Positions 1 through 6,029 of a stretch of DNA of 6,029 bases are shown piece by piece (position 1 is the stretch's first letter; each line of letters starts with the position of its first letter). The stretch is from a virus. The DNA lies in the IMG/VR virus record IMGVR_UViG_3300020030_000002, positions 1 through 6,029 of that record; one strand, written 5' to 3'. The translations under genes and the position numbers were made by a program. The notes below the pieces were generated by a model, which saw nothing but the letters and a program-made list of their open reading frames with translations, searched no databases and was not told where the DNA came from.

Positions 1-121
1 GCCACCACGAATAAGGGCGGCTCCGCCGAGACTGCCAGCGACTCCAACAAGAGCCTTGCCGATCTCAAGATACGGATCAAGCTTGGCATTACGGAGGGCA
101 ATACGAGCTTCTTCGGGGAGA
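1..121. repeat. Terminal redundancy, copy A (circular-genome assembly overlap)
   Basis: A base-by-base comparison shows 1-121 is identical to 5909-6029. It lies inside the VP2 coding sequence, so it is not a biological repeat element. Confidence 0.96.
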
Positions 122-1197
122 AATTCTGAAGCTTTAGATTGATTAATTTCGGTCTTGTCATAAAAGTCTTTAAGAGACATAGAAATCTTAAAAGTCTCAG
201 GACCAGGATTACCACGCTGGATAGGGTTATTCGAACGGACATTAGCGCTGTAGGCAGGATTCGGGATCTCAATCTCAAAACGCTTATCCCATTGACGAGA
301 AAGCTCATTAGCGAGATCAAGATTGTTAATACGCTGTCCTTCCTCATTGGCAGAAGCAAGATCAGAGAGAGATTGATTGAGAACACCCTGCGTTTCAAGA
401 ACGAGGACTCGAGCTTTGACCATGCGCTCGACGTACGAACCCTGAATGCGAAGTTGTCTTAATTCTTCTTTAGCCGTTTCGGCAAACGCCTTAACCTCCT
501 CAACGCGAGCGTCGAGTGTGAGAGAGAGTAAAGTATTGTTAAGATCATTTAAAAGACGCTCAGACTTAAGTGCAGCAGCGGCCTCAATTTCCTTATTAGC
601 AAGGGCTTCGTCGACAGCCTTAGAGGCTTCAGCACGAGCCTTATTAAACTCAGGTTCAAAAGTATTACTACGAATATTTGCAGCCTCAGCATCATCACGA
701 TTAGCGGCGGCGACGTTGCGGTCGGCAGTCGAACGGGCGAGCATATTCTGTGCAATAGCCGCAGGGTCGGAAACGGGGCCAAAACCCGAGCCACCAGAAA
801 AAGTACCTGAAGGTCCGGAGGCAGAGGGCATAGACGCAGAACCACCTGACATAGTCGCATTTACGCCAACACCCGAAGAACCAAGAACGGCAGCGGGGGT
901 TACGCCAGCTTTTAAATAACGATCGAAAACCTTCGTAGGATCATTGTAAGCGTTCTCATAGTCAAACTGCTTCTGCCAGTTAGCATAGGAAAGTTCAGAT
1001 TGTTTTTGCATTTGCTCTAAAGCATATTTCTGCTGAAGAGCCATCTGTTTCTGCTGAAAACGCCACTGACGACGAGCGTTCATACCGCCAAAAAGCTGAC
1101 CAAGAGCGCCAGAAATTAGACCGGTAGTGCCCGTAGAGGCAGCAGCCTGACCGAGAGATTGACCAAAAGATGCAGCGGAAGCACCAGGAATAGCCAT
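1..1197 (-). CDS. VP2: DNA pilot / minor capsid protein VP2, N-terminal 399 codons. The ORF leaves the window at nt 1 and continues at 5908.
   Basis: I translated this by hand from the ATG at 1197..1195 and found 399 sense codons with no stop down to nt 1 (MAIPGASAASFGQSLGQAAASTGTTGLISGALGQLFGGMNARRQWRFQQKQMALQQKYALEQ...). An in-frame TAA at 1212..1210 bounds it upstream. It has a Gly/Ala-rich hydrophobic N-terminus. The segment YENAYNDPTKVFDRYLKAGVTPAAVLG matches the YNxP...R...AG(L/V)xP signature I recall from gokushovirus VP2. It also has a long Ala/Glu/Leu-rich helical region. It is absent from the supplied ORF track only because it is truncated by the window edge. Confidence 0.85.
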   Translation of the reverse strand, partial: MAIPGASAASFGQSLGQAAASTGTTGLISGALGQLFGGMNARRQWRFQQKQMALQQKYALEQMQKQSELSYANWQKQFDYENAYNDPTKVFDRYLKAGVTPAAVLGSSGVGVNATMSGGSASMPSASGPSGTFSGGSGFGPVSDPAAIAQNMLARSTADRNVAAANRDDAEAANIRSNTFEPEFNKARAEASKAVDEALANKEIEAAAALKSERLLNDLNNTLLSLTLDARVEEVKAFAETAKEELRQLRIQGSYVERMVKARVLVLETQGVLNQSLSDLASANEEGQRINNLDLANELSRQWDKRFEIEIPNPAYSANVRSNNPIQRGNPGPETFKISMSLKDFYDKTEINQSKASEFLPEEARIALRNAKLDPYLEIGKALVGVAGSLGGAALIRGG

Positions 1198-1198
1198 A

Positions 1199-1390
1199 CT
1201 ATATACGAGTTAAATTATTAGAACGAATGATATAATCAACACGCACAGTATCGATGTGAACGCCACTACGCTGCATCCTAGCCTGGGCAGAACACGAAGC
1301 AAGAAAAAAGGCAGCTAAAGCAGCAACGATAGACGAAATGAGCGTCCAAAAAGCCTTCGACTTATAGAAGGGTGGTCTAGTATCAGACAT
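1199..1390 (-). CDS. Small predicted lipoprotein (63 aa), function unknown; candidate lysis or superinfection-exclusion factor
   Basis: ATG at 1390..1388 and TAG at 1201..1199, one nt before the VP2 ATG. The product is MSDTRPPFYKSKAFWTLISSIVAALAAFFLASCSAQARMQRSGVHIDTVRVDYIIRSNNLTRI. It has a basic n-region (K10, K12), an ~18-residue hydrophobic core, and then L30-A31-S32-C33, which matches the lipobox [LVI][ASTVI][GAS]C. The Cys codon is at 1294..1292. It occupies its own non-overlapping slot in a densely packed genome. Confidence 0.6.
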   Translation of the reverse strand: MSDTRPPFYKSKAFWTLISSIVAALAAFFLASCSAQARMQRSGVHIDTVRVDYIIRSNNLTRI

Positions 1391-1416
1391 AGAAATAAAA
1401 AATTAAAGAACGATAG

Positions 1417-1494
1417 AAAAATGCGCGGCCTCTCCGGCAGTCGTTACCAATAACCTCTAACAATTCACGAACTCTTGCAAGAGGGGTCCGCGCA
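1417..1494 (-). terminator. GC-rich long-range stem followed by a T5 tract on the coding strand; leaky terminator and/or ssDNA structural element
   Basis: Read on the minus strand: TGCGCGG-acc-CCTCT, then 46 nt, then AGAGG-CCGCGCA, then TTTTT (1421..1417). That gives 7 + 5 bp of complementary arms with a 3-nt bulge. The interior contains the perfect 12-nt palindrome CTCTTGCAAGAG (1472..1483) and a third CCTCT copy (1454..1458), which allow alternative folds. It lies in the 134-nt gap between the 98-aa and 63-aa ORFs. Confidence 0.4.
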
Positions 1495-1524
1495 CGTAAC
1501 ATATATCGTCAAGTAAAGAAAACG

Positions 1525-1832: not shown

Positions 1833-3623
1833 TTAACGATTAGACAAACGGGTAGCAAATGTTTTATTAACTAAGTTCTTCTTCTGAACAGAGTACGAAA
1901 GGTTGATGAAAAAGTTATCTTCCGACTTAGACAGAAACGGGGAGTTTACCTGATTAATATCCACAAACAGAAGAGAGTAATACTTATTGTAGCTCGCTGA
2001 CAAAACACGCTGTTGAACCCAATAAGAATAAAGAGGCGTACTGTTAGCGGCACCTTGGAATAGAGACAACTGGCCAAGAACTTCGTCATACGAGGATCGA
2101 AACTCGTTAAAGCATGGTTCGTAAGCCACAGCCTCCGCGGCTGAAGTGGTTCCGAAGCCGAACTGGAACCCAGGAACATCCTGATATCCAATGTCATTAT
2201 AAATCGGATTAAAATAATCAGCACCGGTGTAATGGAGATAGTCGGGGTAAACGCCTGCCCAATAGTAGACGGGACGAATACTCAGCATATCGATCAAATA
2301 ACCAGGTTCGCGGAAGTAGTAGGACTGTCGACGACCAAGGCGATCGTTAAAAGCAATAGCACCACCCTGCTGGCCAAGAGGCGGAAAGCCTTCTGAGCTG
2401 TCAAAATTGCCATTACCTGCTTGATTCATAATTACCTGAACATTAATGGTCTGCGACGCACTAAACAGGAGCTTAGGCCGATCGACGTGTTCAATCTTTG
2501 ACGCAAAGAAAGTTTCCAGCCAGTCGCTATAGCGAGAACCGCCAGCGCCGAGAAGGTCTTTATACTCCTGAAGCCGCGAAGCGATAGCTAACTGCGGTAT
2601 AGTCGAAACGCCAGACATGGAAACGCCCTCGGAACTGCCGACGGGGAGCAGGCGACTGTAGCGGTCAGGGTTTGAAGGTATAACAGCCATCGGATGAGAC
2701 ACAAGGAATGCTCCGAGCGAAGTGACAGTTGTAGTGCCAGCATCGATAGAGAGTTGACCCGCGGGACCTGCAGTAGTCAGTGAAGTACTTCCGGGGTAAA
2801 TGGTAGAAACAGGATAACCATCCCTAGAGGCGGTAATCGTAGCGCCAAGGTCTGAAAGCAATATCTGGGAAAAAAGATTCCCTCTATTGTACGTATTGTT
2901 CGACGACGGCACAGCCGAAGGGTAGAATTGACTCTCAAAATAAGCATCAAGGAATTCAAGGTTTCCGAATCTTTGCGAAAAGAACGTCGAATTAGCGCTA
3001 AACTGAGAGACGTTATACGCAGTACCAGTACTATTAGGAATGAAATACCAACTGCTAGGCCAAGCGAAAGAATAGAGTCCCCACTGGGAGTAGCCGTAGT
3101 AATTACGGACGATATCCCAATAAGCAAGATAAGAATCGGCGGTGCACCAACCTAAAGGATAACCCAATTGAGCTGTCGAAAGGTTCGCCGACATGGGAAC
3201 GTTACTAGAAGTTGTCGACGGAATAGAGGCGGGAACAATGCGTAACCAACGAAGCAATGAATTAGAATAAGGGTAGTTATTGTGGGTGAATGGGTAAGAG
3301 GCGGTTGTCGAAGCAGCAACGAAATTCAAGCTCAAATCATTCATGTCAAACTTGCTGCTATTCGTTCTCATTTCAGGATGGTACAGCTGAAGCGGCACCC
3401 AAAAACGATGCAAGCGAATAGTGAAGGGGTTGAATGTCGGAACGGCGAGTGGATTACTACGAACATCGACGCCTTGCTCAATAGACACACGATCTCGAGC
3501 GTTAATAAAATCGATTCGCACAGGATATAAAATACCCGGCGTGCACGTAAAGGCTTTGCTCTCAGGAACATCGTAACGAGAGTAGCCATTTACAGCGTGT
3601 GAAATAAAAGGTTGTTTTCCCAT
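1833..3623 (-). CDS. VP1: Major capsid protein VP1 (phiX174 F-like jelly-roll capsid protein), 596 aa
   Basis: Several conserved Microviridae capsid blocks are recognisable. These include TPGILYPVRIDFI, RSNPLAVPTFNPFTIRLHRFWVPLQLY (the PL..P....H.F(F/W)VP block) and SYLAYWDIVRNYYGY (the aY..Iwn.YY block). Also present are IASRLQEYKDLLGAGGSRYSDWLETFF (the LQ.w.e...r.G.RY.e.l..fF block) and FREPGYLIDMLSIRPVYYW. It is the largest internal ORF, and its ATG at 3623 lies 3 nt after the Rep stop. Confidence 0.96.
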   Translation of the reverse strand: MGKQPFISHAVNGYSRYDVPESKAFTCTPGILYPVRIDFINARDRVSIEQGVDVRSNPLAVPTFNPFTIRLHRFWVPLQLYHPEMRTNSSKFDMNDLSLNFVAASTTASYPFTHNNYPYSNSLLRWLRIVPASIPSTTSSNVPMSANLSTAQLGYPLGWCTADSYLAYWDIVRNYYGYSQWGLYSFAWPSSWYFIPNSTGTAYNVSQFSANSTFFSQRFGNLEFLDAYFESQFYPSAVPSSNNTYNRGNLFSQILLSDLGATITASRDGYPVSTIYPGSTSLTTAGPAGQLSIDAGTTTVTSLGAFLVSHPMAVIPSNPDRYSRLLPVGSSEGVSMSGVSTIPQLAIASRLQEYKDLLGAGGSRYSDWLETFFASKIEHVDRPKLLFSASQTINVQVIMNQAGNGNFDSSEGFPPLGQQGGAIAFNDRLGRRQSYYFREPGYLIDMLSIRPVYYWAGVYPDYLHYTGADYFNPIYNDIGYQDVPGFQFGFGTTSAAEAVAYEPCFNEFRSSYDEVLGQLSLFQGAANSTPLYSYWVQQRVLSASYNKYYSLLFVDINQVNSPFLSKSEDNFFINLSYSVQKKNLVNKTFATRLSNR

Positions 3624-3626
3624 AAA

Positions 3627-4697
3627 TTAAATGTTTAATTGAAGTTTATAATGATCTCTCCAAAACTGAAGAATATCCAAATCTAACCAAGTAGGAGGAT
3701 CAAGGTCAGGCATCTTCCGAGAAGACGCGGCAAAACGCATTATTTGCTTTTGCTCCCAGATATACGAAGCTCTACGGGATACGGCGGAACTGAGACCGAA
3801 CCGGTCAACACACAAAGACACAATACGCTTAACCAGAGGAGACTTGCTAAAACGTGCATAACAATCAGCAGAGGCAATCGAGCGAAAAACCTCGTCTTCC
3901 GGTTTAAAATACTTAAAATAGTATCGAGGGATCGAGTAATTATAATTGATACGCCGCGCAAAATCAAAATAAGACCACGACGAAACACTAGCAGAAGGAC
4001 GAGGCATATAACCAAGAAAATCACCAACGCCAGAAGATACGAATTTTCGCGTATAACGGCGATGTTGGAGGAGGATAGATAAAGGAGTAACGTTTCCATT
4101 TACAGTAACATATTTATCCGAAATTTCTTCGGGGTTAAATTCAATTTGTTTAGTAACATATTTAACACAATAACGGGCTCGCTTATGGGTGGCCTTCGTT
4201 AACCAAACAAAACCAAGGCCACGAACAGCAGAACGAATTGTATTATAAAGGACATTTGTGCCAAAAAGAAAGCCATGAAAGTGCAATCGAGGCTCATTTC
4301 CCATTTCGGGGTGTGTGCCAAACTCTTGAAAAAAAGCGTGCTTAAATGAATGACCGAGTTTATGACGCAAACGCTCATTGAAACGACGAATGAATCGAGA
4401 AGGGTCAAGTAGGGCTTCATCGTAATAACTCGGATCAATCGTTATTGTAACAAAAATAGACTGCCGGCCATCAGCCTTACAACGAGCAAGCTCGCGCTCT
4501 AGGCGAACAAACCAATCATTACGCTGACGACGCAAGCAGTCTTCACACTTTCCACAGGGAACCATCAACCATTGGCGGGAAATATCCCAGGGGCGAAGGG
4601 CTAAAGCTGACTTGGCGACATCGGAGCCATTACGACAAGGGTTTTTCTTATCGAAATAACGACGATTTCGTATCCATATGGGAGATGAACAAGGCAT
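3627..4697 (-). CDS. VP4: Rolling-circle replication initiator VP4 (phiX174 gpA-like HUH endonuclease), 356 aa
   Basis: The N-terminal Cys motifs are MPCSSP and VPCGKCEDCLRRQRNDW (Cys-rich, typical of gokushovirus-type VP4). Motif I is FVTITID. The HUH motif is RLHFHGFLF, with HFH at 4283..4275. The two-tyrosine catalytic motif is ARYCVKYVTK, with YCVKY at 4172..4158 (compare phiX174 A, YVAKYVNK). Confidence 0.95.
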   Translation of the reverse strand: MPCSSPIWIRNRRYFDKKNPCRNGSDVAKSALALRPWDISRQWLMVPCGKCEDCLRRQRNDWFVRLERELARCKADGRQSIFVTITIDPSYYDEALLDPSRFIRRFNERLRHKLGHSFKHAFFQEFGTHPEMGNEPRLHFHGFLFGTNVLYNTIRSAVRGLGFVWLTKATHKRARYCVKYVTKQIEFNPEEISDKYVTVNGNVTPLSILLQHRRYTRKFVSSGVGDFLGYMPRPSASVSSWSYFDFARRINYNYSIPRYYFKYFKPEDEVFRSIASADCYARFSKSPLVKRIVSLCVDRFGLSSAVSRRASYIWEQKQIMRFAASSRKMPDLDPPTWLDLDILQFWRDHYKLQLNI

Positions 4698-4897
4698 TAA
4701 AAAAGGCTTTTAAGGCAATCAAACTTAACATAAGGGTTAGTACGGCGACAACGAACAAGATAATCATTCGCAGAAGTTTCGTCGGCAAACCAAGCGATAA
4801 TAACTCGCTTTCGGCCGCGGTACGCGCCAACAGAATAACGATGAGGAACACTATTAACGTTAAGAGAATATCTAGGTCTGAAATCGAAATAATCCAT
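4697..4897 (-). CDS. Small basic protein (66 aa), unknown function, apparently translationally coupled to Rep
   Basis: ATG at 4897..4895. The stop and start overlap as TAATG at 4699..4695, sharing nt 4697 with the Rep ATG. The composition is diverse and non-repetitive (MDYFDFRPRYSLNVNSVPHRYSVGAYRGRKRVIIAWFADETSANDYLVRCRRTNPYVKFDCLKSLF), with 12 Arg/Lys against 6 Asp/Glu by my count. It is the first ORF after the strong terminator. Confidence 0.6.
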   Translation of the reverse strand: MDYFDFRPRYSLNVNSVPHRYSVGAYRGRKRVIIAWFADETSANDYLVRCRRTNPYVKFDCLKSLF

Positions 4898-4931
4898 AAT
4901 TTAAAAATATACCTTACATTAAACAGTGAAT

Positions 4932-4989
4932 AAAAAAAGCCCACAGGAGATGAGCAGTCTCCTGGGGCTCAACGAGTTAAAGAACTCGT
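4932..4989 (-). terminator. Tandem-hairpin rho-independent terminator on the coding (minus) strand
   Basis: Read on the minus strand, the first element is ACGAGTT-cttt-AACTCGT (4989..4972), a perfect 7-bp stem. The second is GCCCCAGGAGA-ctgctca-TCTCCTGtGGGC (4968..4939), an 11-bp GC-rich stem with one bulged nt and a 7-nt loop. TTTTTTT (4938..4932) follows immediately. It starts 25 nt downstream of the stop of the 107-aa ORF. Confidence 0.7.
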
Positions 4990-5013
4990 CCTCCAAGCGG
5001 GCGGGTCACTACC

Positions 5014-5337
5014 TTAGTGCCCTTTCCCTTCTTCTTTCGACGTGCTTTCATCCTGAGCAAAATCATAATCAAACGTAAGAACAAGCGTATTCTCGAAAAA
5101 TTCGATCGAAAAACCAGAACGCAAAATCAAATCCTTTACAAGATGAGAAATACGAGAATGATAAATATAGGGCGAATCAGAAATACTAGAATGCTCTACA
5201 TAATTAGAAACAGGCGTATGAGCGAGAGAGTCAAGAGGAATTTTCTCAAGACGGTCATCTTTGATGTAGCCGACCTGAACAAGATCGATCGAGAAAGCCG
5301 GATTGATACGGCGAATGACAACATGAATCTGTGGCAT
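5014..5337 (-). CDS. Hypothetical protein (107 aa from the first ATG), accessory, unknown function
   Basis: The track lists 5014..5388, but that start is a TTG (5388..5386) overlapping the upstream gene. The first ATG is at 5337..5335, 11 nt after the upstream stop. The product is MPQIHVVIRRINPAFSIDLVQVGYIKDDRLEKIPLDSLAHTPVSNYVEHSSISDSPYIYHSRISHLVKDLILRSGFSIEFFENTLVLTFDYDFAQDESTSKEEGKGH. The composition is balanced and I recognise no family. Confidence 0.55.
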   Translation of the reverse strand: MPQIHVVIRRINPAFSIDLVQVGYIKDDRLEKIPLDSLAHTPVSNYVEHSSISDSPYIYHSRISHLVKDLILRSGFSIEFFENTLVLTFDYDFAQDESTSKEEGKGH

Positions 5338-5348
5338 AATAATATAGT

Positions 5349-5666
5349 TTAACAGTGTTTTACAAATTCGGCCAAAAAACGCTTCCAAGCCTCAGAATGT
5401 TTGAGCCAGAATTCACAACCCTCAGGAGTTGAGGTAAACAAAAAGGCCGTGAGAATAAGGGATCCTAGGCCAAAATAGGAACCACAATAAACGAGTCGAA
5501 TGTGATCACGCAAACAATCTCGGAAGGATTTCTTAGACGTACGACCACGTTCAAAATTTGACCGAAACGAAGAGTACAAATTTCGGCGAACAAGCCACTC
5601 GATGAACGCATACTCTACGACATCGATAAGCAGATCATTAACACTAACTCTTTTGTTTTTTTTCAT
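5349..5666 (-). CDS. Hypothetical protein (105 aa), accessory, unknown function
   Basis: ATG at 5666..5664 and TAA at 5351..5349. It has a basic N-terminus (MKKNKR) and a C-terminal aromatic signature, AFLFTSTPEGCEFWLKHSEAWKRFLAEF. From memory, that signature resembles an uncharacterised small-protein architecture common in gut and Bacteroidota phage genomes (AF.W..T.EG..FW......W). I could not verify this. Confidence 0.6.
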   Translation of the reverse strand: MKKNKRVSVNDLLIDVVEYAFIEWLVRRNLYSSFRSNFERGRTSKKSFRDCLRDHIRLVYCGSYFGLGSLILTAFLFTSTPEGCEFWLKHSEAWKRFLAEFVKHC

Positions 5667-5746: not shown

Positions 5747-6029
5747 TCAAAACCGATTACGACGAGTACTCGAGCCATAAGTCGAACCCATAGATTCAGT
5801 TCTCGAACTACTTACGACGTTACCACGAGAATCGTACGTAGTAGTATAAGACGAATTGTTCGAACCTCCTGTATTAGCTTGCGTAAAGCCTTTCACAGCG
5901 CGTGTCATGCCACCACGAATAAGGGCGGCTCCGCCGAGACTGCCAGCGACTCCAACAAGAGCCTTGCCGATCTCAAGATACGGATCAAGCTTGGCATTAC
6001 GGAGGGCAATACGAGCTTCTTCGGGGAGA
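5747..6029 (-). CDS. VP2: DNA pilot protein VP2, C-terminal portion. 5909..6029 duplicates 1..121; the unique tail is 5908..5747.
   Basis: nt 1197..1 is exactly 399 codons, and the frame continues at 5908 as ATG ACA CGC GCT ... (MTRAVKGFTQANTGGSNNSSYTTTYDSRGNVVSSSRTESMGSTYGSSTRRNRF) to TGA at 5749..5747. The full protein is 452 aa. Confidence 0.85.
   Translation of the reverse strand, partial: LPEEARIALRNAKLDPYLEIGKALVGVAGSLGGAALIRGGMTRAVKGFTQANTGGSNNSSYTTTYDSRGNVVSSSRTESMGSTYGSSTRRNRF
5909..6029. repeat. Terminal redundancy, copy B (circular-genome assembly overlap)
   Basis: Identical to 1-121 over all 121 nt. Confidence 0.96.

What the first reader, a model, noticed from the sequence alone, without database searches (positions are those of the whole stretch)
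1199..1390. Microvirus-encoded small lipoprotein immediately upstream of VP2
The 63-aa ORF has a complete type-II signal peptide architecture: a basic n-region, an 18-residue hydrophobic core, and the lipobox LAS|C with Cys33. That would leave a 31-residue basic, beta-prone mature peptide (CSAQARMQRSGVHIDTVRVDYIIRSNNLTRI). I know of no lipoprotein in the canonical Microviridae gene set, and I recognise no lysis gene elsewhere in this genome. Phage-encoded small lipoproteins in other families act as outer-membrane spanin subunits (Rz1-type) or as receptor-blocking superinfection-exclusion factors (T5 Llp, Cor). Either role would be new for a microvirus. A phiX174 E-like single-gene lysis role for the membrane-anchored precursor is also possible. 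There are no acidic residues right after the Cys, which in Bacteroidota argues against surface export.
Basis: partly seen in the sequence, partly recalled or inferred. Interest (0 to 1): 0.7.

Follow-up and report, generated by a model that had tools for sequence, protein, structure and literature searches.

The report
Conserved small lipoprotein gene in gut microviruses
A tiny gut virus of Bacteroidales bacteria carries a real, strongly conserved gene for a 63-residue lipid-anchored envelope peptide that no microvirus paper describes; it may help the virus burst its host, but its function is untested.

Summary
Window 1199-1390 (minus strand) is a genuine 63-codon gene. Its stop lies 1 nt before the VP2 start. 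It is intact in 71/71 relatives, has dN/dS of about 0.06-0.14, and is the most conserved protein of the genome. The lipobox is LASC with Cys33. The Cys is kept in 257/257 family members, with S/G/A at -1 in about 255 and no acidic residue at +2 to +5.

It belongs to a modular family found only in microviruses. One conserved signal peptide is joined to at least three unrelated ~30-residue mature peptides, and the window's mature peptide also occurs with other signal peptides. The slot upstream of VP2 is filled in all 20 listed GenBank relatives. Integrated copies lie in Alistipes genomes, so hosts are Bacteroidales.

No Pfam, PHROG or NCBIfam family matches. One GenBank TPA homologue is already auto-labelled 'lipoprotein', and I found no paper on it.

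Function is inferred only. Lysis or envelope disruption is most likely, because these genomes lack the M15 peptidase that other gut microviruses carry. Superinfection exclusion is the main rival.

A conserved overprinted 119-aa membrane ORF sits inside the replication gene. An 80-nt covarying structured element lies just upstream of the lipoprotein gene.

The parts
1199..1390 (-). Prolipoprotein gene: 63 codons plus the TAG stop at 1199-1201.
   Evidence: ORF. Intact in 71/71 relatives, median identity 87%. pN/pS 0.14 and median dN/dS 0.06 over 83 distinct orthologues. Synonymous diversity is normal at 0.42-0.48, so conservation is at the protein level.
1295..1390 (-). Signal peptide, codons 1-32. 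The n-region is MSDTRPPFYKSK and the h-region is AFWTLISSIVAALAAFFLAS.
   Evidence: Composition and hydropathy. K12, F14, W15, L17, A24, L25 and F29 are invariant or nearly so across 23 divergent members. AF2 gives a helix with pLDDT 87-93 over residues 11-30.
1292..1303 (-). Lipobox L30-A31-S32-C33. The Cys33 codon TGT is at 1292-1294. The predicted Lsp cleavage is S32|C33.
   Evidence: All 257 family members keep a Cys, 10 residues before the G.H.D[ST]V motif in 254 of them. Position -1 is S, G or A in about 255. Cys is encoded by both TGT and TGC among orthologues.
1202..1294 (-). Mature lipopeptide, codons 33-63: CSAQARMQRSGVHIDTVRVDYIIRSNNLTRI ('class 1').
   Evidence: G43, H45 and D47 are invariant, and T48 and V49 nearly so. 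pN/pS is 0.13 for codons 34-57. No D or E at +2 to +5 in any member. The same mature peptide occurs with unrelated signal peptides in L090, L091, P0146, P0154 and P0163.
1195..1197 (-). VP2 (DNA pilot protein) start codon, 1 nt after the lipoprotein stop (TAG-T-ATG). This implies co-transcription and probable translational coupling.
   Evidence: The same 1-nt spacing is found in 85/88 relatives. VP2 matches PHROG 8689, pilot protein.
1416..1495 (-). 80-nt structured element ending in a U-run, 25 nt upstream of the lipoprotein ATG. It is a candidate attenuator/terminator or a single-strand origin. Gene callers often translate it as a false N-terminal extension, giving the '100-aa' forms.
   Evidence: Across 49 distinct sequences, 99% of cells are paired and 9 of 22 pairs show compensatory changes. 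No shuffle of 500 reaches the observed values, and slid controls pair only 33-47%. No Rfam or tRNA match. Its frame differs from the ORF's frame in the window.

Best explanation
Shown: window 1199-1390 (minus strand) is a genuine protein-coding gene of a circular microvirus of about 5.9 kb. The gene belongs to a family found only in microviruses whose hosts include Bacteroidales (Alistipes). Its product has every sequence feature of a bacterial prolipoprotein.

Inferred pathway: the precursor is exported by Sec. Cys33 is diacylglycerol-modified by Lgt, and Lsp cuts at S32|C33. This leaves a 31-residue, beta-prone, mildly basic lipopeptide anchored on the periplasmic face of the inner or outer membrane. 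It should not reach the cell surface, because it has no acidic export signal. The gene is made together with the pilot protein VP2, from the late transcript downstream of a structured U-run element that probably lowers expression.

Inferred function, my best guess: the lipopeptide attacks a conserved component of the host envelope and causes or assists lysis and virion release. It would work like the small bacteriolytic lipoproteins of other minimal replicons (colicin lysis / bacteriocin-release proteins, entericidin B). It would substitute for the M15 peptidoglycan peptidase that other gut microviruses carry. The unusually conserved signal peptide may itself contribute, as the stable signal peptide of release proteins does.

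I put about 0.9 on 'real lipoprotein gene' and about 0.45 on the lysis function.
For: Real gene:
- 389 homologue clusters.
- dN/dS about 0.06-0.14 with saturated synonymous sites.
- Intact in 71/71 relatives and the most conserved protein of the genome: 87% identity against VP1 69% and VP2 55%.
- No overlapping constraint on the gene.

Lipoprotein:
- The rule-based test is met, and the lipobox Cys is invariant in 257/257 members with a small residue at -1.
- The only sub-threshold database hits are to lipoprotein signal regions: LPAM_1, YgdI/YgdR, LptM, Lpp.

Host is a diderm with Lgt/Lsp: integrated microvirus prophages carrying the gene lie in three Alistipes genomes.

Looks essential:
- The slot between the structured element and VP2 holds a small lipobox ORF in all 20 listed GenBank relatives, which were picked by similarity elsewhere in the genome. 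Fifteen are class 1. Five are class 2, with the same signal peptide and a different mature peptide.
- The gene persists after moving to another genome position (L004, L007, L008, L089).

Lysis specifically:
- No ORF of the window has a hydrolase or any lysis domain.
- 0 of 96 lipoprotein-bearing loci carry an M15 peptidase like that of Bacteroides microvirus phiHBP1 (PMC13064476).
- That peptidase is common in other gut microviruses (469 phage records). Six of six peptidase-bearing microviruses lack a family-type lipoprotein ORF.
- High conservation while the capsid and pilot proteins diverge fits a conserved host target better than a fast-evolving receptor.
Against: - There is no experimental evidence of any kind, and SignalP/LipoP could not be run.
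- The signal peptide is long (32 aa, with an h-region of about 20 residues), which is closer to a membrane anchor than to a typical SPII signal.
- A rival lysis candidate exists in the same genomes, the overprinted membrane ORF at 3740-4099. The peptidase/lipoprotein complementarity therefore cannot be assigned to the lipoprotein alone.
- The complementarity rests on few, phylogenetically separate peptidase-bearing genomes.
- Discrete mature-peptide classes on a shared signal peptide also fit specificity types of an exclusion or immunity function.
- The gene is present in temperate (integrated) relatives, where exclusion genes are common.
- AF2 gave no usable fold for the mature part.
- There is no sequence similarity to any known lytic lipoprotein.
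Confidence: 0.45

Rival explanations
1. Superinfection exclusion or receptor masking. The lipopeptide would sit in the envelope of infected or lysogenic cells. There it would block the phage receptor or pilot-tube entry, protecting the cell from related microviruses and sparing progeny from adsorbing to debris. This is how T5 Llp and the Cor lipoproteins of phi80 and N15 work.
For: - It is a small phage lipoprotein of the right size and topology.
- The gene is present in integrated prophages in Alistipes.
- It is adjacent to, and coupled with, the pilot protein gene VP2.
- Several discrete mature-peptide classes sit on one signal peptide, which looks like specificity types.
- The gene moves between genome positions like an accessory cassette.
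Against: - The slot is occupied in every relative examined, which is unusual for exclusion genes.
- The protein is far more conserved than the receptor-contacting capsid and pilot proteins.
- Lipoprotein class does not track VP1 relatedness: VP1 identity is about 61-69% both within and between classes.
- There is no similarity to Llp or Cor families.
Confidence: 0.25
2. A phiX174 E-like mechanism. The conserved N-terminal transmembrane segment, either the uncleaved precursor or the released signal peptide, would be the effector. It would inhibit a membrane step of cell-wall synthesis. The lipobox and the mature peptide would be secondary.
For: - Signal-peptide type a (KKFWTL..AIVAAL.AFF) is conserved at the protein level across mature classes 1, 2 and 3, unlike ordinary signal peptides.
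- Its synonymous sites vary normally, so the constraint is on the protein.
- The h-region is about 20 residues, long enough to span a membrane.
Against: - The class-1 mature peptide is just as conserved.
- It also occurs with unrelated signal peptides (L090, L091, P0146, P0154, P0163), so the mature part carries function.
- The Cys and the small -1 residue are invariant, which points to Lsp processing.
Confidence: 0.1
3. Outer-membrane partner in a two-part lysis system. The overprinted membrane protein inside VP4 (3740-4099) would damage the inner membrane or wall synthesis. The lipoprotein would then disrupt the outer membrane, as a spanin-like last step.
For: - Both ORFs are conserved together throughout the window's clade, including the class-2 genomes.
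- The lipoprotein has the size of o-spanins.
Against: - There is no i-spanin-like partner with a periplasmic coiled coil.
- There is no endolysin.
- The mature peptide has no Cys and is not Pro-rich.
- Lineages with the lipoprotein but no detectable homologue of the VP4-internal ORF exist (L004, L007, L008, L089).
- There is no Rz1 family match.
Confidence: 0.08
4. Not a lipoprotein. It would be a small type-II membrane protein whose conserved Cys serves another role such as a disulfide or metal site, or a cytoplasmic or virion protein.
For: - The h-region is long, and the Cys lies near the upper limit (position 33) for lipoprotein signals.
- Class-2 members often have LESC, with an atypical Glu at -2.
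- No predictor was run.
Against: - The -1 residue is S, G or A in about 255 of 257 members, and the Cys position relative to the h-region is fixed.
- Database near-hits are all lipoprotein signals.
- A hydrophobic N-terminus with a positive n-region predicts export, which excludes a virion role.
Confidence: 0.07

Closest known systems
Colicin / cloacin lysis proteins (bacteriocin release proteins, Pfam PF02402 Lysis_col) and entericidin B
   Same: They are very small prolipoproteins with a mature part of about 30 residues. They are encoded by minimal replicons that must release a macromolecular product through a Gram-negative envelope. They are bacteriolytic when expressed, and the signal peptide itself is reported to matter. 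These properties are from my own knowledge. The match in architecture and size is shown.
   Different: No sequence similarity was found (no Pfam or NCBIfam hit). The host phylum is different (Bacteroidota). The signal peptide here is 32 aa and sequence-conserved. Lytic activity has not been tested.
T5 Llp and Cor (phi80, N15, HK022) superinfection-exclusion lipoproteins
   Same: They are small phage-encoded lipoproteins that act in the envelope of the infected cell (own knowledge). The precursor size is comparable.
   Different: They belong to dsDNA tailed phages and block FhuA. There is no homology. The window's gene is kept in every relative examined and is more conserved than the receptor-binding proteins.
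Rz1-type o-spanins
   Same: They are phage prolipoproteins of about 60 residues with a short mature peptide.
   Different: There is no Rz-like i-spanin, no holin or endolysin cassette, no Pro-rich mature region and no periplasmic Cys for disulfide linkage. There is no family match.
phiX174 protein E (single-gene lysis, MraY inhibitor)
   Same: It is a microvirus-encoded small membrane-targeted protein with a conserved N-terminal hydrophobic segment, in a genome without a muralytic enzyme.
   Different: E is not a lipoprotein and is overprinted inside gene D (own knowledge). The window's gene stands alone, with normal synonymous variation. The overprinted ORF at 3740-4099 resembles E more closely in its gene architecture.
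GenBank DAU60727.1 'MAG TPA: lipoprotein [Microviridae sp.]'
   Same: It is a direct homologue, 89% identical over the 63 residues. The lipoprotein label therefore already exists in a public record.
   Different: The name comes from automated annotation, and the record includes the false 37-residue N-terminal extension. It has no family definition, no functional claim, and no paper that I could find.

Membership tests
Bacterial prolipoproteins (SPase II substrates; PROSITE PS51257-type signal) | Positively charged n-region followed by an uncharged hydrophobic h-region. | tested here: met
   The n-region has net charge +2. The uncharged stretch is A13-A37, and the best 19-residue KD window scores 2.14.
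Bacterial prolipoproteins (SPase II substrates; PROSITE PS51257-type signal) | Lipobox [LVI][ASTVI][GAS]C, with the Cys within residues 15-35. | tested here: met
   LASC with Cys33. The Cys is invariant in 257/257 members, and -1 is S, G or A in about 255. The rule was written from memory.
Bacterial prolipoproteins (SPase II substrates; PROSITE PS51257-type signal) | SPII call by a trained predictor (SignalP 6, LipoP). | not testable with these tools
   No such predictor was available.
Bacterial prolipoproteins (SPase II substrates; PROSITE PS51257-type signal) | Lipid modification and globomycin-sensitive cleavage. | not testable with these tools
   This needs an experiment.
Rz1-type o-spanin | Paired with an i-spanin (Rz) gene, embedded in or adjacent to it, within a holin-endolysin cassette. 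| tested here: not met
   The neighbours are the structured element and VP2. No ORF of the genome has an endolysin, holin or spanin domain.
Rz1-type o-spanin | Pro-rich mature peptide with periplasmic Cys for intermolecular disulfides; family-level similarity. | tested here: not met
   The mature peptide has no Pro and no Cys beyond the lipidated one. No Pfam or PHROG hit even at E<=5-10.
Colicin lysis / bacteriocin release proteins (PF02402) | Sequence membership of the family. | tested here: not met
   None of the 23 divergent members hits PF02402 at E<=10.
Colicin lysis / bacteriocin release proteins (PF02402) | Small prolipoprotein with a mature part of about 30 residues that causes quasi-lysis on expression. 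| tested here: inconclusive
   The architecture and size match. Lytic activity cannot be tested here.
Llp / Cor exclusion lipoproteins | Sequence membership, and blocking of the phage's own receptor. | tested here: not met
   No family hit in Pfam, NCBIfam or PHROGs. Receptor blocking cannot be tested here.
phiX174 E-type single-gene lysis protein | Non-lipoprotein N-terminal TMD protein, overprinted in another gene. | tested here: not met
   The gene stands alone with normal synonymous diversity. It has a conserved lipobox.
Microvirus small-lipoprotein family defined here (signal peptide + ~30-aa mature peptide, class 1 = G.H.D[ST]V motif) | Class-1 motif 10 residues after the lipobox Cys, in a microvirus genome context. 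| tested here: met
   The window protein is 83-95% identical to 120 listed clusters. Contigs carrying the 120 listed clusters are at most about 12 kb, and the loci checked (L001-L008, L089-L091) carry VP1, VP2 and/or VP4 homologues. The motif spacing is 10 in 254 of 257 members.

The most novel reading that the evidence does not exclude
The gene would be the founding member of a new class of single-gene lysis effector. It would be a lipid-anchored periplasmic 'protein antibiotic' of about 30 residues, used by Bacteroidales microviruses in place of a peptidoglycan hydrolase. The interchangeable mature-peptide classes would each target a different conserved envelope-biogenesis protein. All known small-phage lysis proteins act from the cytoplasmic side or within the inner membrane, so a lipoprotein acting from the periplasm would be a new route. 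It would also be a new source of targets in gut anaerobes.
Probability: 0.3. Interest if true: 0.85.

Novelty: new variant of a known kind. Interest (0 to 1): 0.6.

Why it matters
How microviruses other than the phiX174 group lyse their hosts is largely unknown, apart from those with M15 peptidases. These viruses are among the most abundant phages of the mammalian gut.

A universally retained, highly conserved and exported lipopeptide gives a concrete candidate that is easy to synthesise. It can be tested by inducible expression in Bacteroides or Alistipes, with C33A and signal-swap mutants. A cultured lysogen (Alistipes montrealensis kh20) carries a relative.

If the peptide is lytic, its target would be a conserved envelope function of Bacteroidales, and the different mature-peptide classes would be natural probes. 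If it is an exclusion factor, it would be the first described for gut microviruses.

The work also corrects annotation. The '100-aa' gene calls are artefacts of translating a structured element. The replication gene contains an unannotated overprinted membrane-protein gene.

Tried and rejected
- AF2 on a 23-sequence alignment gave one long helix. Only the signal peptide was confident (pLDDT 87-93); the mature part scored 57-74. I ran no fold search because the model is uninformative.
- Pfam, PHROGs and NCBIfam gave nothing above threshold at permissive E-values. The only near-hits were generic lipoprotein-signal matches.
- Rfam and tRNA scans of the window found nothing.
- The consensus promoter/terminator scan of 1100-1900 was not above the shuffled expectation.
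- Folding 146 nt around the element on its own was not significant (z = -0.6). Only the comparative analysis revealed the structure.
- The 100-aa 'long N-terminus' form is rejected. The extension is in a different frame in the window, is the translated structured element, and 65 of the 120 listed homologues are called at 63 aa.
- The hydrophobic GTG ORF at 4648-4944 is rejected as a gene, because it is intact in 0/69 relatives.
- The plus-strand ORF at 3744-4082 is rejected as the cause of synonymous suppression in VP4, because it is broken by stops in divergent relatives.
- The ~190-200-aa 'long C-terminus' forms in other lineages are not beyond chance. The open frame survives 32-52% of synonymous shuffles of the overlapped gene, and substitutions do not fit coding in that frame.
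- Literature searches for microvirus lipoproteins or lipoprotein single-gene lysis found nothing relevant.
- There is no cellular homologue. The genome scan returned only three Alistipes microvirus prophages.

Full report
**What the window is.** The 6029-nt window is a complete circular microvirus genome of 5908 nt, assembled with an exact 121-nt terminal overlap: 1-121 equals 5909-6029. All genes are on the minus strand:
- replication initiator VP4, 3627-4697;
- major capsid VP1, 1833-3623;
- an acidic 98-aa ORF, 1525-1821;
- the candidate ORF, 1199-1390;
- pilot protein VP2, from 1197 across the junction to 5747 (452 aa);
- three small ORFs.

These assignments rest. The closest GenBank genomes are unverified 'Microviridae sp.' from pig, civet, deer, rodent, lemur and tortoise faeces.

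**The observation.** There is an ATG at 1388-1390 and a TAG stop at 1199-1201, giving 63 codons. The n-region MSDTRPPFYKSK has net charge +2. The hydrophobic core is about 20 residues. The lipobox is LASC with Cys33 (TGT at 1292-1294). The mature peptide is 31 residues, with five K/R, two D/E and one H. The VP2 ATG follows the stop after a single base (TAG-T-ATG), and 85 of 88 relatives keep this spacing. On either strand of the genome, this is the only ORF that passes a strict lipoprotein-signal rule.

**Is it a real gene?** Yes.
- A search of 5.8 billion proteins found 389 clusters of homologues. The best 120 are 83-95% identical.
- Eighty-three distinct 63-codon orthologues from IMG/VR and GenBank have saturated synonymous differences (pS 0.63) but few replacements (pN 0.088). 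Pooled pN/pS is 0.14 and the median pairwise dN/dS is 0.06. Both the signal peptide and the mature part are constrained, and only the last six residues are relaxed.
- The ORF is intact in 71/71 related genomes. With VP4 and the 98-aa ORF it is the most conserved protein: 87% median identity, against 69% for VP1 and 55% for VP2.
- Its synonymous codon diversity (0.42-0.48) equals the genome average, so no hidden overlapping element explains the conservation.

**Is it a lipoprotein?** I could not run SignalP or LipoP. The comparative evidence is strong.
- In 257 family members, a Cys lies upstream of the conserved G.H.D[ST]V motif without exception, 10 residues upstream in 254.
- The residue before it is S, G or A in about 255.
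- No member has an acidic residue at +2 to +5.
- The Cys is encoded by both TGT and TGC.
- The only database near-hits, all below threshold, are to lipoprotein signal regions: LPAM_1, YgdI/YgdR, LptM, Lpp/OprI.
- From memory, S/T-rich lipoboxes such as LTSC and TTSC are typical of Bacteroidota, and acidic residues after the Cys are their surface-export signal. If so, the family looks like periplasm-facing Bacteroidota lipoproteins.

The caveats are a long signal (Cys at 33, h-region of about 20 residues) and the LESC box of many class-2 members.

**Family anatomy: a modular gene.** Five of the 20 listed GenBank relatives, which were picked by nucleotide similarity elsewhere in the genome, were missing from the list of homologue-bearing records. 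All five carry, in the same slot, a 65-aa ORF with the same signal peptide (…SKKFWTLVAAIVAALAAFF-L/V/I-E/S-S/G-C). Its mature peptide is unrelated: TTRHYVVQSASSIKSGDTTRTTITYEQIGNFKRP, 'class 2'. Class 2 has 31 clusters. P0170 and P0172 show further mature peptides on that same signal peptide. Conversely, the class-1 mature peptide occurs with unrelated signal peptides in L090, L091, P0146, P0154 and P0163.

In other lineages the gene sits between VP2 and VP4 or directly before VP4, instead of before VP2 (L004, L007, L008, L089). There it stays about 55-75% identical, while VP1 and VP4 fall to about 30%. The gene therefore behaves as a mobile, recombining cassette that is always retained.

**Host.** A scan of 185,579 species genomes found the class-1 motif only in three Alistipes genomes. 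In each it lies inside an integrated microvirus carrying VP4, VP1 and, where detectable, VP2. Contigs carrying the 120 listed homologue clusters are at most about 12 kb. The family therefore appears confined to microviruses, and at least part of it infects Bacteroidales.

**Comparison with known families.** No member matches Rz1, Cor, Llp, colicin-lysis, entericidin or any other Pfam, PHROG or NCBIfam family.
- The spanin model fails its defining features: no i-spanin, no endolysin or holin, no Pro-rich region and no extra Cys.
- The closest analogues in how they work are the colicin lysis / bacteriocin-release lipoproteins and entericidin B. These are tiny prolipoproteins of minimal replicons that lyse or permeabilise the producer (own knowledge). 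This is a resemblance in architecture, not family membership.
- One GenBank TPA homologue (DAU60727.1) is auto-named 'lipoprotein', and a class-2 member is named 'chitin synthase regulator'.
- Five full-text searches, plus targeted reading of five papers, found nothing about microvirus lipoproteins.

**Function: inferred, not shown.** An exported lipopeptide cannot be a virion or cytoplasmic assembly component. It must act on the envelope of the infected cell.

Arguments for lysis:
- The slot is filled in every relative examined.
- The protein is much more conserved than the receptor-contacting capsid and pilot proteins.
- Lipoprotein class does not track VP1 relatedness.
- The genome has no muralytic domain.
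- The M15 peptidase is carried by the cultured Bacteroides fragilis microvirus phiHBP1 (PMC13064476) and by many other gut microviruses. It is absent from all 96 lipoprotein-bearing loci. Six of six peptidase-bearing microviruses lack a family-type lipoprotein.

Arguments for superinfection exclusion:
- Related genomes are temperate.
- The mature peptides fall into discrete classes.
- The gene is adjacent to VP2.

The protein-level conservation of signal peptide type a is unexplained. It leaves room for an E-like or stable-signal-peptide contribution.

My estimates are: lysis or envelope disruption about 0.45, exclusion about 0.25, and the remaining rivals about 0.25 together.

There is another lysis candidate. 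Across 62 VP4 orthologues, synonymous codon diversity falls from about 0.5 to 0.11-0.18 (one 15-codon block reaches 0.31) over window 3753-4112, and recovers on both sides. No comparable drop occurs anywhere else in the genome, apart from the short overlap with the basic-peptide ORF. The dip coincides with a minus-strand ORF at 3740-4099. This ORF encodes 119 aa with two or three hydrophobic segments and a charged C-terminus.
- It is intact in 69/71 close relatives.
- It is open over the 92-119 codons aligned in eight of the nine more divergent relatives checked, including all five class-2 genomes; L005 has a single stop three codons from the end.
- The plus-strand ORF at the same place is broken by stops in those relatives.

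This is a phiX174-style overprinted gene with no database match. It could be the lysis protein, a partner of the lipoprotein, or something else.

**Upstream element.** Twenty-five nt before the lipoprotein ATG lies an 80-nt element (1416-1495, minus strand) with an 8-bp closing stem, inner helices and a U-run. Across 49 distinct sequences, 99% of cells pair and 9 of 22 pairs show compensatory changes. No shuffle of 500 reaches the observed values, and slid controls pair only 33-47%. It has no Rfam match. It may attenuate transcription into the lipoprotein-VP2 pair. Because the packaged strand has the same sense, it could instead be a complementary-strand origin, like those in the phiX174/G4 F-G intergenic region (own knowledge). 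Gene callers often translate it in frame with the ORF, which produces the spurious 100-aa forms.

**Verdict.** The function is open, with lysis the best-supported guess. The finding is a new, microvirus-specific variant of the known kind 'small phage or plasmid lipoprotein acting on the envelope'. It is abundant in public data but essentially undescribed. Interest is 0.6.

Noticed in passing
window 3740-4099 (minus strand), inside VP4 (3627-4697): Overprinted 119-aa ORF with 2-3 hydrophobic segments and a charged C-terminus. It is intact in 69/71 close relatives and open in divergent relatives, including the class-2 genomes. VP4 synonymous diversity drops from about 0.5 to 0.11-0.18 over 3753-4112. 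There is no database match. It is a candidate E-like or holin-like protein.
   Followed up: yes
window 1416-1495 (minus strand): 80-nt structured element with strong covariation: 99% paired, 9 compensatory pairs, 0/500 shuffles. It ends in a U-run 25 nt before the lipoprotein ATG. It has no Rfam family. It could be an attenuator/terminator or a single-strand origin.
   Followed up: yes
window 1-121 and 5909-6029: Exact 121-nt terminal repeat, the assembly overlap of a circular 5908-nt genome. VP2 runs across the junction and is 452 aa.
   Followed up: yes
window 4977-5084 (minus strand), overlapping the 3' end of the 124-aa ORF at 5014-5388: Short ORF ending in a strongly basic tail...MKARRKKKGKGTKVVTRPLGGRVL. 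It resembles a phiX174 J-type DNA-binding peptide (from memory). Synonymous diversity of the 124-aa ORF drops to 0.23 over 5029-5088, which supports a second coding frame there.
   Followed up: partly
L008 1512-2114; L089 9977-10585; proteins P0124-P0167: In other lineages the lipoprotein frame runs on for about 130 codons across another gene. It ends in the same kind of basic tail (RRGGRRGK.RPK.TK.IPLGGSHL), which has no ATG of its own. The open frame is not beyond chance for a single genome (32-52% of synonymous shuffles are stop-free), and substitutions do not fit coding in that frame. How the tail is translated is unexplained.
   Followed up: partly
L089 9977-14793 (Alistipes montrealensis kh20, NZ_JAGYXY010000001.1); also L090, L091: Integrated microvirus prophages in Alistipes genomes, with the gene order lipoprotein - VP4 - VP1 - 112-aa ORF - VP2. 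One is in a cultured strain and could serve as an experimental system.
   Followed up: partly
L092-L096 (MG945170, MG945272, MG945509, PP511490, OM869610), slot upstream of VP2: 'Class 2' allele: the same signal peptide as the window's gene but an unrelated 34-residue mature peptide, often with an atypical LESC lipobox. One nr member is auto-named 'chitin synthase regulator', which looks spurious.
   Followed up: yes
window 1383-1502 (minus strand) and the 100-aa database entries (e.g. P0005, P0062): The 39-aa ORF MLRARTPLARVRELLEV... is the translated structured element, not a gene. Depending on frame, it is fused to the lipoprotein ORF in about 40% of the listed public gene calls.
   Followed up: yes
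window 4648-4944 (minus strand, GTG start): Very hydrophobic 98-aa ORF overlapping the 66-aa gene. It looks like a membrane protein but is intact in 0/69 relatives, so it is not a gene.
   Followed up: yes
L097 84-488 (Bacteroides phage phiHBP1, PV598014) and 469 phage records: An M15-type peptidase is common in gut microviruses (bajarodmic, Dulem and other groups). Its distribution is complementary to the lipoprotein family in the genomes checked.
   Followed up: partly
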